A stretch of 64,000 bases of DNA from a virus: the IMG/VR virus record IMGVR_UViG_3300021091_000016; one strand, given 5' to 3'. The translations under genes were made by a program, and so were the position numbers. Each line of letters begins with the position of its first letter. Position 1 is the first letter of the stretch. Below, in pieces: positions 33,162-45,729 of the stretch. Under the pieces are notes generated by a model. It was not told the origin of the DNA, did no database searches, and saw nothing but the letters and a program-made list of their open reading frames with translations.

Positions 33162-33170
33162 GACGAGACG
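33162..33170 (+). promoter_or_regulatory. GACGAGACG motif (putative phage promoter)
   Basis: T-tract + CCTGTAGT + GACGAGACG, 28 nt before the ATG at 33198. Confidence 0.6.
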
Positions 33171-33197
33171 TCAAAGCCGACATAAAAGGAGATTCTT

Positions 33198-33971
33198 ATG
33201 TCAAATTGTAAACGAGGGATATTCCCTCAAGTCTGGCCAGCACAACTGGCTAATCCAGCTGGTTGCTGGAAAAGTGTTAAGGTGGAGCGTGCTCCATCAG
33301 TTTTACCAATGATTGTTTTAATGATTGTTGGTATCCTTGGTTTAATTTTGGGTTCATTCCTGGTGGAACCTAAAGCTACTCCTTTTTCAGGCTTGCAAAT
33401 CTGTAAGCCACAGCCTCAACCCATTCCTCAGCCTCAGCCTGAACCTGAACCTCAGATTGAGCCACAGCCTGAGCCTAAAGCCGAACCTAAAACCGAAGTT
33501 AAACCTAACCTAATTGATGCTGCTATCGCTGTAGCAAAAGCGCAAGAGTTTGTTTCCTCGTCTAACGAGGAGACTATGCGTTTGAGTTTGCAAACCGCAA
33601 TTGAACACTGGGAGTCTCTAGGGGAAACCCAAGATGACATCCAAAACCTAGTAGCGCTATATTACGTGGAAACACGTTATGGCGTGAAAGGGAAGATTTG
33701 CAGGGACGATACTGGCGCTTGTGGTCATTTCCAGATTGTCCCAAAGGTGTGGAAAAAGTTATTCGGCCAGCTCAAAGATGATATCGAGTCTCAAGCAGAA
33801 ATGCTTATCGATATTAGGGAACACCTAAAGACATATAGCGCTGATAGGTGGAAGGCTTATTATGCGCTATCATTCAAAGGTGCTCAAGCCGCTATCAAAA
33901 GCGGTAAATTGAGTGCCTATGAAGTAAGAAACAATAAAATTGAGAGCGAAATAAAGGCTCTCTTAAAATAA
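33198..33971 (+). CDS. Membrane-anchored lysozyme-like/lytic transglycosylase with PQ/PE linker
   Basis: TM helix, (PQ/PE)n linker, YVETRYG...GACGHFQI catalytic-type motifs. Confidence 0.65.
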   Translation: MSNCKRGIFPQVWPAQLANPAGCWKSVKVERAPSVLPMIVLMIVGILGLILGSFLVEPKATPFSGLQICKPQPQPIPQPQPEPEPQIEPQPEPKAEPKTEVKPNLIDAAIAVAKAQEFVSSSNEETMRLSLQTAIEHWESLGETQDDIQNLVALYYVETRYGVKGKICRDDTGACGHFQIVPKVWKKLFGQLKDDIESQAEMLIDIREHLKTYSADRWKAYYALSFKGAQAAIKSGKLSAYEVRNNKIESEIKALLK

Positions 33972-34012
33972 AATAACAATCATAAATACTAATACTAATT
34001 ATAATAACTAAA

Positions 34013-34070
34013 TCTTATATAGAGGGTTTCTCCCTCTACTGATGAGGCCTAATTGACGGCCGAAATAAGA
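34013..34070 (+). ncRNA. Hammerhead ribozyme HH3 (type III), predicted cut after A34019
   Basis: TCTTATA|TAGAGGG-TTTCT-CCCTCTA-CTGATGA-GGCC-TAATTGAC-GGCC-GAA-ATAAGA. Confidence 0.93.
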
Positions 34071-34183
34071 ACATCAGTTTGTATCATATCTTTTCTGTCA
34101 TTCTCGCTGTGAATAAATAAATAAGACATTAACAAGACTTTCATTAGTCTTTTTTTGTGCTTCATTTTTTAAACACCTGTAAT

Positions 34184-34192
34184 GACGAGACG
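34184..34192 (+). promoter_or_regulatory. GACGAGACG motif (putative phage promoter)
   Basis: T-tract + CCTGTAAT + GACGAGACG. Confidence 0.6.
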
Positions 34193-34197
34193 ATTTC

Positions 34198-34243
34198 AAC
34201 TCTAGCATGGCGCATTTTCTAGGTTCGATTCCTAGATAGAGTT
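34198..34243 (+). ncRNA. tRNA-like mini-element (acceptor-like stem and T arm, no anticodon arm)
   Basis: AACTCTA/TAGAGTT stem stacked on TCTAGG-TTCGATT-CCTAGA. Confidence 0.55.
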
Positions 34244-34360
34244 TTAGACCAATTATGGTCGAGCTGGGTTTAGTACAACCCTCCAAAAGTACTCTTAAGC
34301 TAATACAATTCCGTATAAAGCTTTCGTATTTTAACAATCCCAATGTAAGGAGAATGCATC

Positions 34361-34696
34361 ATGGGAAAGTTCAATTTCAAAATTAACAAAGCCATCAAGG
34401 CTGAGTTGATTACACGAGGGTTGTTACCCTTATTCGTTAAGGCCGTAAAAGGTCTGGTAAATCAAGGCGTCGTTGTCACTGACAACAGTAGCGTCTTGTT
34501 GGCTCTTATTTCCTTCATGAAGGATAATAAAGGGTTTTTCACAAGAAAGCAATTGCTAGTAGTGTTGCTAGCATTGTTCCAAAAAGCGAGCTTTCTCTGT
34601 AGGACCGGTTGGTCCGCAGGTGGAGAAAGCTTCCTCGTTGACACAGAGAATGGGACTCTCTATGTCAATCTAAGCCAAGTCCAATTCTACTTCTAG
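34361..34696 (+). CDS. Hypothetical protein
   Basis: AAGGAG RBS. Confidence 0.65.
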   Translation: MGKFNFKINKAIKAELITRGLLPLFVKAVKGLVNQGVVVTDNSSVLLALISFMKDNKGFFTRKQLLVVLLALFQKASFLCRTGWSAGGESFLVDTENGTLYVNLSQVQFYF

Positions 34697-34838
34697 TAGA
34701 GAAAGGTAGCTATCATGCTAATTGATTCGTCCTAAACGAATTTGCGTCTAAAGTGCAGGTGTAATTCCTGTTAATCCCAAACCCCCAAACCCCAACCCTC
34801 ACCCAATGGAGATTATTATGGATACGTCCTAAAATCCC

Positions 34839-43342: not shown

Positions 43343-43648
43343 ATGAGTATTGTAGAAATAAATATTATTGCGGCGATTATTTGTATATGTATCGCAACAA
43401 TATATAACCTACTCACTGATTTTAAACGATTCAATGATGTAGCTGTAGTAGCATGGTCTATATTAGAAGTGCTGGGATTCAAAAGAGAGTACCATTGGAG
43501 CGGTAATATTATTGCATTCGTTCTTAACCAAGTAGTGAATGTAGTAGTATTTATGTATTTGCCAGGACTATTCCTAATCTGTGCTATATCCTATATTATT
43601 GTAGGATTAAATAGCATATCAGAGGAGTTGAATGCAAATGAGCTTTAA
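43343..43648 (+). CDS. Membrane protein (start reassigned to MSIVE)
   Basis: AAGGAG RBS before 43343; hydrophobic helices. Confidence 0.65.
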   Translation: MSIVEINIIAAIICICIATIYNLLTDFKRFNDVAVVAWSILEVLGFKREYHWSGNIIAFVLNQVVNVVVFMYLPGLFLICAISYIIVGLNSISEELNANEL

Positions 43649-43868
43649 TATTGCTTTATGTATCTTTTCATCCTGGTTGTTCGTAGACGAAATGCAATTC
43701 TTAAACGCAACACTTAACCAAACGCTTAGACTCGATATAAAGATTCTAATGCATATGATTACCTTAACTGTACTTTCAATGAATGCATCAATGATGCTAT
43801 CCATGCCACAAAGCTACACTCTATTCGGAGTAGTAGCTATCATAACCTATATCATCTACAAAGGATAA
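43632..43868 (+). CDS. Small membrane protein
   Basis: AGGAG RBS; hydrophobic. Confidence 0.55.
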   Translation: MQMSFNIALCIFSSWLFVDEMQFLNATLNQTLRLDIKILMHMITLTVLSMNASMMLSMPQSYTLFGVVAIITYIIYKG

Positions 43869-43873
43869 CTGTA

Positions 43874-44200
43874 ATGTTAGAAGAACACTATCAAGGCTCA
43901 GCATTTAGAGAATGCCAAACCACTGACAATGAAATGTATTGTCAAACAAACAAATTTATTACTAGAGATGATAAGGTAATTGAGTATGTCGAAAGATATT
44001 ATAAGAAAACCTCATCGTTCTTGGTAATGTTCAATCCCTCAAATATCCCACTATTTGAGGATAGGGTCATGGTCTATGCAGAACAAATTCAATTTGCTAA
44101 GAACCTAGACATGGATATTAAATTTAAGAAGGATAAAAGACATCCAGATTTATATGTAGTACATATCGACCCAAAGAGTGAGATAAACACTACATGTTAG
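43874..44200 (+). CDS. Hypothetical protein
   Basis: RBS, operon packing. Confidence 0.6.
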   Translation: MLEEHYQGSAFRECQTTDNEMYCQTNKFITRDDKVIEYVERYYKKTSSFLVMFNPSNIPLFEDRVMVYAEQIQFAKNLDMDIKFKKDKRHPDLYVVHIDPKSEINTTC

Positions 44201-44436
44201 ATTTGTATATTAGCTGTTGGATATTCAGCAGTATCTTTTTTATTGGTTATATATTGGTAAAGAGAGATGAGATAGAAGCTGTTAATGTGCCGTTTGATTT
44301 AGAATTTATTAAATCGGTAATAGGCTTTTACTTCATGTCATTCTTTACCTGGCATATGCTAGTGGCTCTATTAGTCACAGACCCAAAAGGATTTGATAAT
44401 GAAATTAAGAAATCAGTCCAAAACTACTCAAAATAA
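44194..44436 (+). CDS. Small membrane protein
   Basis: Two hydrophobic segments. Confidence 0.55.
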   Translation: MLDLYISCWIFSSIFFIGYILVKRDEIEAVNVPFDLEFIKSVIGFYFMSFFTWHMLVALLVTDPKGFDNEIKKSVQNYSK

Positions 44437-44449
44437 AGGAACACAAAAA

Positions 44450-44830
44450 ATGAGCAATCAAGACACAACAACAGAGACTCCTAAGGTAGATACACCTAAG
44501 GTAGAAGCTCCAAAAGAAGAAACTCCCAAAGTGGAGACTCCTAAGACAGAAGTAAAAAGCTTTAATGAAATCTATAAGGACTTACCTAGATGGTCTAAGA
44601 TATTACTCTCGTTAGTAGTAATTAGTGCAATTTATAAGTTCGTCCCAATTGTGGAGCTATTGACATTGTTTTTCTGGGCTGTAATGGTTCCAGTAGTATT
44701 TCTATTTATGTTAGGCGTTATTAGTAGTGAGACCTATGATTCCATTTGTGATGGAATCACTGGTATTAAGAAAGCCGTCAAAACAAAGCTAGAAGAAGAA
44801 AAAACACAAGCTCCTCAGAATGCATCGTAG
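44450..44830 (+). CDS. Membrane protein with N-terminal (E/D)TPK repeats
   Basis: AAGGA RBS before MSNQD; two TM segments. Confidence 0.65.
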   Translation: MSNQDTTTETPKVDTPKVEAPKEETPKVETPKTEVKSFNEIYKDLPRWSKILLSLVVISAIYKFVPIVELLTLFFWAVMVPVVFLFMLGVISSETYDSICDGITGIKKAVKTKLEEEKTQAPQNAS

Positions 44831-44914
44831 TGCGTGTACTGAACACAACTACAGTCTTTTACCCCTAGAAAACCTAATCCCCCCTATCTCGAAAAGAGAG
44901 AAAGTACTTAACAA

Positions 44915-45478
44915 ATGTTTAGTAAAGTATCAAATGTAATCACAGTTTTTAAAGCATTTTGCCACAATCCAAGCATTCAAGGAGAATTGATGGACAGCTT
45001 AAGAAAGAAAGTAGTAGAAAGCTCAATGAATCTCATCACTGTATATAGTGCAGTAATTGATGAAAGACATAAGGTAATCGAGACTTTATCTAAATTAGAG
45101 GATACTGTTAATCTTATTGAGGAAAGATGGAACCTACATGTAACAGATGTAGCTACATATAAGAATACAAAGATTGGTAAAGCAGTAAAGGCAATTATTG
45201 AATCAGATTCTGAGATTGATAGCAGGGTAATTAATAAGCTAGAATCAGCAATCGACGATGTGAATCCAAGAAAAATTATCAATGTTTACAAGGCTTTAGA
45301 TACTGGTAGTCTCGAGAGAAGGCTTGATGCACTACAGGAACAATATGAGGAGATTCAAGGAATTAATGGTATTGCTGCTAGAGATACAGAGGTACTAGTC
45401 AAGCATCATATGCAACTAGTAGAGATGGTATTGGCAGAAAGGAAATGTGAATCCACACAAGAAGAATATAATTTTTAA
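44915..45478 (+). CDS. Coiled-coil hypothetical protein
   Basis: 187-aa helical ORF. Confidence 0.6.
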   Translation: MFSKVSNVITVFKAFCHNPSIQGELMDSLRKKVVESSMNLITVYSAVIDERHKVIETLSKLEDTVNLIEERWNLHVTDVATYKNTKIGKAVKAIIESDSEIDSRVINKLESAIDDVNPRKIINVYKALDTGSLERRLDALQEQYEEIQGINGIAARDTEVLVKHHMQLVEMVLAERKCESTQEEYNF

Positions 45479-45720
45479 AAATATTTAAATATTTTTCTTG
45501 ATTTTCCGTTGTTACTTGTGTAATCTCAAATATGTGAGATGAGGTCGCAACGTTGCAGTTGCTTGGGTTGTTTGTGTTCAGTCCTAATTTATCGATTTTA
45601 TCGATACTTTAGGATTGCCTCTTGACTTAGTATACATAATATATGTATATATAAGTTATATACCCCCGACAGGGGGTAAGTCCTTCTGACTATAAAAGAA
45701 AAAAAGAAAAGAGATAAGAT

Positions 45721-45729
45721 GACGAGACG
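45721..45729 (+). promoter_or_regulatory. GACGAGACG motif
   Basis: Exact copy preceded by an A-rich tract. Confidence 0.5.

What the first reader, a model, noticed from the sequence alone, without database searches (positions are those of the whole stretch)
33162..45729. GACGAGACG: nine same-strand intergenic copies confined to the polymerase/ribozyme island
Seen: copies at 33162, 34184, 35057, 35072, 35077, 41809, 42950, 42965 and 45721, all intergenic and on the plus strand. Most follow a T-tract, three follow CYTGTART, and two loci are tandem pairs at the same 15-nt spacing. I saw none elsewhere in the window. It does not resemble a sigma70 promoter. Inference: promoter or start-site element for a phage RNAP (the adjacent one or a virion enzyme), or binding sites used during DNA entry. 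The three copies before the RNAP gene suggest autoregulation.
Basis: partly seen in the sequence, partly recalled or inferred. Interest (0 to 1): 0.72.

Follow-up and report, generated by a model that had tools for sequence, protein, structure and literature searches.

The report
Conserved early-promoter-like motif of a two-polymerase phage
A nine-letter DNA word, GACGAGACG, marks the start of six early gene blocks in an uncultured marine phage that carries its own RNA polymerases. It is kept letter-perfect in distant relatives, so it is most likely the core of the promoter that one of those polymerases reads.

Summary
GACGAGACG occurs 9 times (6 loci, two of them tandem pairs 15 nt apart), all on the + strand between 33162 and 45729, against 0.01 expected. 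No copy lies elsewhere in the window.

The window is a low-GC contractile-tailed phage. Its 1843-aa ORF (35128-40659) folds as a QDE-1/crAss gp66/P23-45 gp64-type two-barrel RNA polymerase.

Five of the six loci share one module:
- a hairpin plus T-tract (terminator-like);
- 12-30 nt of T-rich spacer, often ending in YTGTAAT;
- GACGAGACG;
- 27 to about 290 nt to the next start codon.

The word is conserved exactly in syntenic relatives whose polymerase is only 24-35% identical. The tandem block before the polymerase gene is 92-100% identical where the flanks are 24-54%. In a 158-kb relative contig it occurs only in the early region. A more distant lineage (GC 44-49%) keeps (GACGA)n sites downstream of its polymerase gene and has a different AT-rich module upstream of it.

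Best reading (about 0.6): the core of a phage-specific promoter for a phage-encoded two-barrel polymerase. I slightly favour the 1843-aa enzyme (self-amplifying) over the virion enzyme. No transcription start data exist. This is a new member of a known kind. The same scan had noted this module before, in an overlapping window of this same genome.

The parts
33162..33170 (+). Motif copy 1. It is preceded by CCTGTAGT and lies 36 nt before the ATG at 33198.
34184..34192 (+). Motif copy 2. It is preceded by CCTGTAAT and followed by a 177-nt leader before the ATG at 34361.
35057..35085 (+). Tandem block GACGAGACG-AAAAAT-GACGAGACGAGACG (copies at 35057, 35072 and 35077). It ends 42 nt before the polymerase ATG at 35128. 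The block is conserved in relatives G001, G002, G003 and L088.
41804..41817 (+). GTCGAGACGAGACG: one exact copy at 41809 plus an overlapping one-mismatch copy. It lies downstream of the polymerase operon terminator. The syntenic site in G001 is at 18441.
42950..42973 (+). Tandem pair with 15-nt spacing (spacer TCACCT). The second copy starts 35 nt before the ATG at 43000.
45721..45729 (+). Last copy, at the head of a noncoding stretch of about 290-430 nt that precedes the long rightward gene block. The syntenic site in G001 is at 22957. G003 has the variant AACGAGACGAGAGG at 120712.
33111..33150 (+). Hairpin followed by a T-rich tail, upstream of copy 1 (terminator-like).
34134..34170 (+). Hairpin plus T7, then a second T6 tract, upstream of copy 2.
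34996..35030 (+). GC-rich hairpin (TTCG loop) plus a T-tract, upstream of the polymerase-gene tandem block.
41769..41791 (+). Hairpin plus T7, ending 18 nt before copy 41809.
42905..42932 (+). AT-rich hairpin plus T7, upstream of the 42950/42965 pair.
35128..40659 (+). 1843-aa single-chain two-barrel RNA polymerase with an invariant GDNDGD at residues 768-773. It is a candidate reader of the motif.
31765..31822 (+). Separate conserved element at the strand switch, GGGGGAGGTTTATATA...GAGCCCACCCCGG. It occurs once per genome, is present in all lineages examined, and heads the first + strand gene block, which lacks the motif.

Best explanation
GACGAGACG is the invariant core of a phage-specific promoter or initiation element. 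Its fuller consensus is T-rich (-36 to -13), yTGTAAT (-7 to -1), GACGAGACG, then r/a-rich.

It heads six co-oriented early transcription units, starting at about 33.16, 34.18, 35.06, 41.81, 42.95 and 45.72 kb. Five of the six begin just downstream of a terminator-like hairpin plus T-tract that closes the preceding unit.

I slightly favour (roughly 55:45) the 1843-aa non-virion enzyme encoded at 35128-40659. Its own gene carries a conserved tandem pair, which would give positive feedback. The first polymerase molecules would come from read-through of a long pre-early transcript started at the conserved strand-switch element (31765-31822). The hammerhead ribozymes would cut that transcript into pieces.

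The alternative reader is the giant tail-locus virion polymerase, as in Thermus phage P23-45.

Shown: the occurrence, placement, conservation and confinement of the motif, and the polymerase fold. Inferred: promoter function, the start site, and which polymerase reads it.
For: 1. Nine of 9 copies lie on the coding strand, in gaps between genes, within 12.6 kb, against 0.01 expected.
2. It is the most over-represented intergenic 9-mer in the window.
3. Exact matches far outnumber one-mismatch variants.
4. Relatives were found through the motif itself (G001, G002) and, without reference to the motif, through polymerase homology (L088, L090/G003, L091, L101). All carry the motif on the early-gene strand.
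5. The block GACGAGACG-N6-GACGAGACG lies upstream of the polymerase gene in five genomes of three lineages (the window, G001, and the G002/L088/G003 group). It is 92-100% identical where the flanks are 24-54% and the polymerase protein is 24-35%.
6. The whole 158-kb contig G003:C1 has only 4 exact copies, all on one strand within 5.7 kb, plus a variant at the syntenic last site.
7. The distance to the next ATG runs from 27-50 nt to about 290 nt in the window and to more than 380 nt in relatives. In L102 a site lies about 270 nt before an Rfam tRNA hit. The element is therefore not translational.
8. Only 12-24 nt separate several copies from the Shine-Dalgarno sequence, which leaves no room for another promoter downstream.
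9. There is no consistent sigma-70 -35/-10 pattern at these loci.
10. The 1843-aa protein is a two-barrel polymerase. The model has pLDDT 84.7, and Foldseek matches QDE-1 at E = 1e-8, phi14:2 gp66 (6VR4) and the P23-45-type non-virion polymerases 8F72 and 8F5M.
11. A second giant protein with GDFDGD lies in the late module of G003.
12. There is a precedent. P23-45 uses two short motifs for its virion and non-virion two-barrel polymerases: an AT-rich one for the former and a GC-rich one for the latter (PMC10770324).
13. In the L101/L091/L102/L103 lineage the polymerase gene follows an AT-rich module (TTTAATTTAyyCCyTTTAATGGr), and the (GACGA)n sites lie only downstream of it. This fits a cascade in which the non-virion polymerase reads the GC-rich word.
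Against: - There are no transcription start, binding or expression data.
- The 9-mer was used to find G001 and G002, so their exact matches are partly ascertained. L088, G003, L091 and L101 were not found that way.
- Second copies in tandem pairs lack the TGTAAT-like upstream part, so the 9-mer could be a protein-binding unit rather than a full promoter.
- The strict 15-nt spacing and 5-nt periodicity are not explained by a simple promoter model.
- If the 1843-aa enzyme reads the motif, its first expression needs read-through of three terminator-like hairpins, which is unproven.
- If the virion enzyme reads it, the distant lineage's different module before the polymerase gene is unexplained.
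- One exact copy in the G002/G003/L088 lineage lies inside, and antisense to, the nuclease gene.
- P23-45 also has a conserved 26-nt motif at termination sites, so a conserved early-region word need not be a promoter.
Confidence: 0.6

Rival explanations
1. It is a cis-acting RNA element near the 5' end of early transcripts. A phage RNA-binding protein or the polymerase itself would bind it, for example for antitermination of the put/nut type, 5'-end protection or mRNA sorting. In this reading the element is not the promoter.
For: The motif is always on the sense strand and inside the presumed 5' leaders. Its 5-nt periodic (GACGA)n form and strict 15-nt tandem spacing resemble repeat-binding RNA proteins. 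The region is rich in processed and structured RNA, including hammerhead cores. Hairpin plus U-tract elements would sit in the same leader if transcripts read through.
Against: No complementary partner (CGUCUCGUC, even with G-U pairs allowed) occurs consistently in cis. The distance to the ribosome-binding site is highly variable. The motif sits immediately after terminator-like hairpins, so most upstream transcripts should end before it. No RNA-binding protein was recognised among the early ORFs.
Confidence: 0.14
2. It is a DNA operator for a phage-encoded transcription factor, either an activator that redirects host RNA polymerase (MotA-like) or a repressor that shuts off early genes.
For: It is a short invariant word in single and tandem copies with fixed spacing, upstream of early genes. 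TA-rich hexamers such as TAAAAT, TACAAT and TAGAGT lie 7-14 nt downstream of several copies.
Against: The downstream hexamers are inconsistent in sequence and distance, and they are expected by chance in DNA that is about 58-69% A+T. Several would place the start after the ribosome-binding site. The word is not palindromic. It is conserved across phages of GC 30-49% that were binned with different bacterial phyla, which is hard to reconcile with dependence on host holoenzyme. No DNA-binding domain was detected in the early ORFs.
Confidence: 0.12
3. It is a sequence-specific termination or pause signal for a phage polymerase, like T7 class II signals or the 26-nt termination-site motif of P23-45. 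It would reinforce the hairpin terminators.
For: It always lies 12-30 nt after a hairpin plus T-tract. P23-45 has a conserved motif at the virion-polymerase termination sites.
Against: The tandem copies lie directly before the polymerase gene and only 12-24 nt before ribosome-binding sites, so they would block every downstream gene, and there is no room for a promoter after them. The last copy heads the long rightward gene block rather than ending one. The first + strand unit has a terminator-like hairpin at its end, but the motif also follows units that have no gene after it for 300 nt.
Confidence: 0.07
4. They are DNA sites used during genome entry, packaging or replication (injection stop signals, primase sites or iterons).
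For: They form a co-oriented array next to the strand switch and terminase genes. The complement contains GTC twice.
Against: The sites are tied to gene starts and terminators rather than to ends or an origin. They occur in only a few loci, and their positions are conserved gene by gene across lineages. Replication or packaging signals would not be expected before a tRNA and noncoding RNA region in the distant lineage.
Confidence: 0.03

Closest known systems
Promoter motifs of Thermus phage P23-45 read by its two two-barrel RNA polymerases (tape-measure-fused virion gp96 and non-virion gp64; PMC10770324)
   Same: The phage has a giant tail-locus polymerase plus a second, non-virion single-chain two-barrel polymerase. 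Short conserved DNA motifs lie upstream of pre-early and early genes, including the non-virion polymerase gene. In the distant lineage one motif class is AT-rich and one GC-rich. The motifs are conserved among related phages.
   Different: The phage group is different: a low-GC contractile-tailed marine phage rather than a Thermus siphovirus. The polymerase model matches QDE-1 better than gp64. The motif sequences could not be compared because the consensus is given only in figures. Here the GC-rich word is the strongly conserved one and also precedes the polymerase gene. Nothing has been mapped experimentally.
T7-group phage promoters (23-bp, polymerase-specific, conserved through +6)
   Same: The motif is highly conserved and non-palindromic, shows no -35/-10 logic, and has an AT-rich upstream part followed by a conserved G-start segment. 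It occurs in multiple co-oriented copies, and terminator-promoter junctions are present.
   Different: The invariant part is only 9 nt. Tandem copies at 15 nt and 5-nt periodic extensions have no T7 counterpart.
Early transcription by crAss-like phage phi14:2 gp66 and by SPbeta YonO
   Same: They belong to the same structural class of single-chain two-barrel polymerase (6VR4 is among the fold hits).
   Different: For gp66, no common motif was found upstream of early transcripts (bioRxiv 10.1101/2020.03.07.982082). For YonO, the promoter sequence was left undetermined (PMC5467207). Here there is a sharp candidate motif.
Coliphage N4 virion-polymerase hairpin promoters
   Same: They are phage-polymerase-specific early promoters, and a hairpin lies nearby.
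   Different: N4 promoters are the hairpin itself, close to +1. Here the hairpins carry T-tails, lie 25-45 nt upstream and look like terminators of the preceding unit.

Membership tests
Bacterial sigma-70 type promoter | -35 and -10 hexamers close to TTGACA/TATAAT, 16-18 nt apart, at a consistent position | tested here: not met
   In one search the region holds 42 promoter-like sites against 42.2 expected. Only one weak 9/12 match (35070-35098) touches a motif locus. Manual inspection of all sites found no consistent downstream hexamer.
Phage-polymerase-specific promoter (generic kind) | The same word on the coding strand upstream of several genes of one temporal block, and absent elsewhere in the genome | tested here: met
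   for the window. for the whole 158-kb relative: copies only in the early region.
Phage-polymerase-specific promoter (generic kind) | Conserved in related phages that encode the polymerase, with flanks free to vary | tested here: met
   92-100% identity in the block against 24-54% in the flanks.
Phage-polymerase-specific promoter (generic kind) | Primary transcripts start at a fixed distance, and the cognate polymerase initiates there in vitro | not testable with these tools
   No transcriptome or biochemical data are available.
P23-45-type two-polymerase early transcription system | A non-virion single-chain two-barrel polymerase encoded in the early region | tested here: met
   Invariant DNDGD, RTPxQ and IDxQK motifs. 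AlphaFold model with pLDDT 84.7, and Foldseek hits to QDE-1, 6VR4, 8F72 and 8F5M.
P23-45-type two-polymerase early transcription system | A virion (tail/tape-measure locus) polymerase in the same genome | tested here: inconclusive
   It lies outside the window. Relative G003 has a 3221-aa late-module ORF with GDFDGD, which was not folded here. Earlier finding e1-5826232 reports the homolog 5.2 kb left of this window.
P23-45-type two-polymerase early transcription system | Motif sequence similar to the P23-45 AT-rich or GC-rich consensus | not testable with these tools
   The consensus is given only in figures.
N4-type hairpin promoter | A 5-7 bp stem with a 3-nt loop immediately upstream of +1, forming the recognition element | tested here: not met
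   The hairpins have longer loops and T-tails, and they end 25-45 nt before the motif.
Structured RNA family (Rfam) | A match to a curated covariance model covering the motif | tested here: not met
   there is no hit over any motif copy.

The most novel reading that the evidence does not exclude
The hairpin/T-tract plus GACGAGACG module is a coupled stop-restart junction. The phage two-barrel polymerase would end one transcript at the U-tract and re-initiate 12-30 nt downstream at the conserved start word without leaving the DNA. Expression along the early region would then be set junction by junction, as at mononegavirus gene junctions. The 15-nt tandem copies before the polymerase gene would act as a gain control.
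Probability: 0.08. Interest if true: 0.85.

Novelty: new member of a known kind. Interest (0 to 1): 0.55.

Why it matters
Promoter recognition by single-chain two-barrel RNA polymerases is largely unknown. No motif was found for crAss gp66, the YonO promoter is undefined, and only P23-45 has mapped motifs. A 9-nt word that stays invariant while the polymerase drifts to about 25% identity gives a concrete template for run-off and binding assays with a newly recognised, rare polymerase family (19 representatives among 1.8 billion proteins). It also gives a first transcription-unit map for this group of uncultured ~150-kb marine phages. Finally, it places the hammerhead ribozymes in context: they mark 3' processing sites, whereas the terminator-motif modules mark unit boundaries.

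Tried and rejected
- **Rfam.** The gathering and E-value scans found no RNA family over the motif.
- **RNA pairing partner.** No reverse-complement partner exists, even with wobble pairs. The hits are fewer than chance predicts.
- **Sigma-70 or activator-dependent promoter.** No consistent hexamers were found (and inspection).
- **ECF, sigma-54 or Bacteroidetes-type promoters.** Considered from memory and not matched by spacing or sequence.
- **Literature.** The word turns up only in cloning primers.
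- **Modified Z-base genome.** This could have changed promoter chemistry. The PurA-like gene at 49202-50386 scores as PurA (355 bits), not PurZ (128 bits, below its cut-off).
- **Second motif.** Exact k-mer enrichment found no second sharp motif in the late or middle intergenic gaps of the window or of G003.
- **Chance hits.** Most other viral-contig hits to the 15-mer or to the tandem pattern are high-GC, or are simple (GACGA)n or coding repeats. L001 is a 16-nt tandem repeat after a tRNA in a 54%-GC jumbo contig and was set aside as unrelated.
- **Protein-pattern searches.** Searches of viral contigs with the single polymerase protein found nothing. The A4 alignment was too divergent to search with.
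- **Access limits.** No whole genome is held for the window. The virion polymerase was not found in the five fragmentary relative contigs, which shows nothing either way.

Full report
**Observation.** All copies are on the + strand and none on the - strand, against 0.01 expected from dinucleotide shuffles. Allowing one mismatch adds only two sites, and one of these overlaps 41809, so the word behaves as nearly all-or-none. The contexts confirm the rest of the description:
- CCTGTAGT, CCTGTAAT and CTTGTAAT lie before three copies.
- T-tracts lie upstream of five of the six loci.
- There are two tandem pairs at exactly 15 nt (35057/35072 and 42950/42965).
- The overlapping copies at 35072/35077 form (GACGA)2GACG.

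**Setting.** The window belongs to a low-GC (about 31%) contractile-tailed phage.
- Terminase, portal, capsid, sheath and a nuclease-fusion gene lie on the - strand from 1 to 31710.
- A + strand block starts at 31923 after a strand switch.
- The stretch 32-42 kb has higher GC, about 42%.
- The 1843-aa ORF at 35128-40659 has no Pfam, PHROG or PDB sequence hit.
- It carries an invariant GDNDGD together with RTPxQ and IDxQK blocks across 19 distant homologs.
- An AlphaFold model of residues 300-1200 (pLDDT 84.7) matches QDE-1 at E = 1e-8. It also matches RDR2, the crAss-like phi14:2 gp66 virion polymerase (6VR4) and the P23-45-type non-virion polymerases 8F72 and 8F5M.
- It is therefore a single-chain two-barrel RNA polymerase. 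The family is rare: 19 representatives among 1.8 billion clustered proteins.
- Seven CTGATGA...CGAAA hammerhead cores lie in the same region on the same strand. Rfam scores them only weakly.

**Anatomy of the loci.** Five of the six loci have the same order of parts:
- a hairpin followed by a T-tract, which looks like an intrinsic terminator;
- a T-rich spacer;
- often yTGTAAT at -7 to -1 (G at -5 in 10 of 13 sites, A at -2 in 10 of 13, T at -1 in 9 of 13);
- the invariant 9-mer;
- an r/a-rich continuation.

The distance from the motif to the next ATG is 35-51 nt at 33162, 35077 and 42965. It is 177 nt at 34184 and at least about 290 nt at 45721. In three window modules and three modules in relatives, a type III hammerhead lies about 145 nt upstream (123 nt in G002). 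Within these modules only the ribozyme core and the 9-mer are invariant.

This reads as six transcription units:
- 33162 to the terminator at about 34150;
- 34184 to about 35030;
- 35057 through the polymerase gene and two further genes to about 41790;
- 41809 to about 42930;
- 42950 to about 45480;
- 45721 onwards into the long rightward block.

The first + strand unit (31923 to about 33130) lacks the motif.

**Relatives.**
- *G001 and G002.* A scan of IMG/VR for the extended word found one low-GC contig with several same-strand copies (G001, six copies). A scan for the tandem pattern found another (G002, four copies). Both are syntenic with the window, yet their polymerase is only 35% and 27% identical.
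- *Relatives found without using the motif.* Searching by polymerase peptide patterns recovered L088, L090/G003 and L091, and later L101. L102 and L103 came from a motif scan. Every one carries the word on the early-gene strand.
- *Tandem block.* GACGAGACG-N6-GACGAGACG sits before the polymerase gene in the window, G001, G002, G003 and L088. Anchored comparison gives 92-100% identity in the 24-nt block, against 37-52% in the 90 nt upstream and 24-54% in the 50 nt downstream.
- *Whole-contig test.* In the 158,217-bp contig G003:C1 the word occurs only four times, all on one strand within 5.7 kb. A degenerate copy sits at the position syntenic with 45721. The rest of that metagenome bin shows background levels on both strands.

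**A more distant lineage.** L101, L102, L103 and L091 have GC of 44-49% and a polymerase of 2175-2178 aa that is about 25% identical to the window's. They keep one or two (GACGA)n sites, all downstream of the polymerase gene. These sites head a noncoding region of about 2 kb that contains hammerhead cores and an Rfam tRNA hit.

In these contigs the polymerase gene and the gene before it follow a different, AT-rich module: hairpin-TTTTTTAATTTAyyCCyTTTAATGGr.

All lineages also share a single element at the strand switch. In the window it is GGGGGAGGTTTATATA...GAGCCCACCCCGG at 31765-31822.

**Interpretation.** The properties expected of a polymerase-specific promoter core are all present:
- a strand-specific, non-palindromic, essentially invariant word;
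- placement after terminators and before genes or noncoding RNA genes;
- a variable distance to start codons;
- only 12-24 nt between some copies and the ribosome-binding site;
- no sigma-70 pattern;
- no pairing partner in cis;
- conservation across phages with very different base composition.

The published parallel is Thermus phage P23-45. There a tape-measure-fused virion polymerase starts at a strongly conserved AT-rich motif before pre-early genes, including the non-virion polymerase gene, and that second polymerase starts at a GC-rich motif (PMC10770324). A giant late-module protein with GDFDGD exists in G003.

**Which polymerase reads GACGAGACG is not settled.**
- *For the 1843-aa enzyme:* the distant lineage's partition, with the AT-rich module before the polymerase gene and the GC-rich word after it; the separate strand-switch element, which could serve the injected enzyme; and the hammerheads, which would process a long read-through pre-early transcript.
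- *For the virion enzyme:* the motif precedes the polymerase gene itself in three lineages, and it stays invariant while that polymerase diverges strongly.

**Rivals.**
- An RNA-level leader element (about 0.14) fits the sense-strand placement and the 5-nt periodicity. It lacks a partner or a recognisable binding protein, and the element sits behind terminators.
- An operator for a factor acting on host polymerase (about 0.12) is weakened by the absence of consistent core promoter elements and by conservation across phages with very different base composition.
- A termination or pause signal (about 0.07) would block every downstream gene, and the last copy heads a gene block rather than closing one.
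- Entry, packaging or replication sites (about 0.03) do not explain the gene-by-gene synteny.

**Limits.** There are no start-site or binding data. G001 and G002 were found through the motif itself. The strict 15-nt spacing and the (GACGA)n periodicity remain unexplained.

**Verdict.** The feature is real, highly non-random and deeply conserved. It is best read as a new promoter word for an uncharacterised family of phage two-barrel RNA polymerases. That makes it a new member of a known kind, of moderate interest, and directly testable in vitro. The scan had already noted this terminator-motif module in an overlapping window of the same genome (e1-5826255).

Noticed in passing
window 31765-31822: A conserved element lies at the strand switch: GGGGGAGGTTTATATA, about 30 nt including a T-run, then GAGCCCACCCCGG. 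It occurs once per genome and is recognisable in every lineage examined, including the distant L101/L091 (AGGGGTATTTATAT...GAGCCyACCCCC). It is a candidate promoter of the first + strand unit, or a genome-end or packaging signal.
   Followed up: partly
L101 7150-7190 and 8465-8505; L091 690-730 and 1625-1670: The distant lineage has a different repeated module, hairpin-TTTTTTAATTTAyyCCyTTTAATGGr, upstream of the polymerase gene and of the gene before it. It looks like a second promoter class.
   Followed up: partly
window 34219-34235 (and G001rc about 11300): The 177-nt leader after motif copy 34184 contains a tRNA T-arm-like hairpin, CTAGGTTCGATTCCTAG. The syntenic leader in G001 has GAGTTCGATTCTC. 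Neither ARAGORN nor Rfam calls it.
   Followed up: no
window 45733-45860: Direct repeats of CTAGTCTAyTAr with AAACACTAAG and CAAATCAAAC-type spacers follow the last motif copy in a noncoding stretch of about 500 nt. This could be an iteron or origin-like region, or a noncoding RNA.
   Followed up: no
window 49202-51542: Adjacent adenylosuccinate synthase and lyase genes. The synthase scores as PurA (355 bits) and far below the cut-off for PurZ, so there is no sign of a 2-aminoadenine genome. ThyX (54384-55214) and RNase HI (52409-52867) lie nearby.
   Followed up: partly
window 52979-53053: Rfam calls a second tRNA (35.9 bits, above the gathering score) next to tRNA-Met at 52896-52969. ARAGORN does not call it.
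   Followed up: no
window 48350-48445: An inverted repeat, AATGTCATTTTT...AAAAATGACATT, lies together with TGTCAAAAAT repeats and TTGACC/TTGACA words in a gap of the rightward block. It could be an operator and a host-type promoter.
   Followed up: no
G003:C1, reverse-complement coordinates 60416-70081 and 48769-59202: The 158-kb relative, deposited as part of a Bacteriovoracaceae metagenome bin, encodes 3221-aa and 3477-aa proteins in the late module. The first carries GDFDGD at residue 2779 and is a likely virion RNA polymerase.
   Followed up: partly
G002 9569; L088 3205; G003rc 104516: One exact GACGAGACG lies inside, and antisense to, the large nuclease-fusion gene in all three genomes of this lineage, on the same strand as the early genes. 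This may be chance kept by coding constraint, or an internal start.
   Followed up: no
L102 4600-6630: In the distant lineage, about 2 kb after the first (GACGA)n site has no ORF of 60 aa or more on the + strand. It holds two hammerhead cores with long stem II inserts, T-arm-like hairpins and an Rfam tRNA hit (6519-6585).
   Followed up: partly
L001 (IMGVR_UViG_3300019458_000519): An unrelated 54%-GC jumbo-phage contig has four tandem 16-nt repeats, CAACTCAGTGACGAGA, directly after a tRNA-like sequence. They share GTGACGAGAC with the motif. The resemblance is probably coincidental.
   Followed up: no
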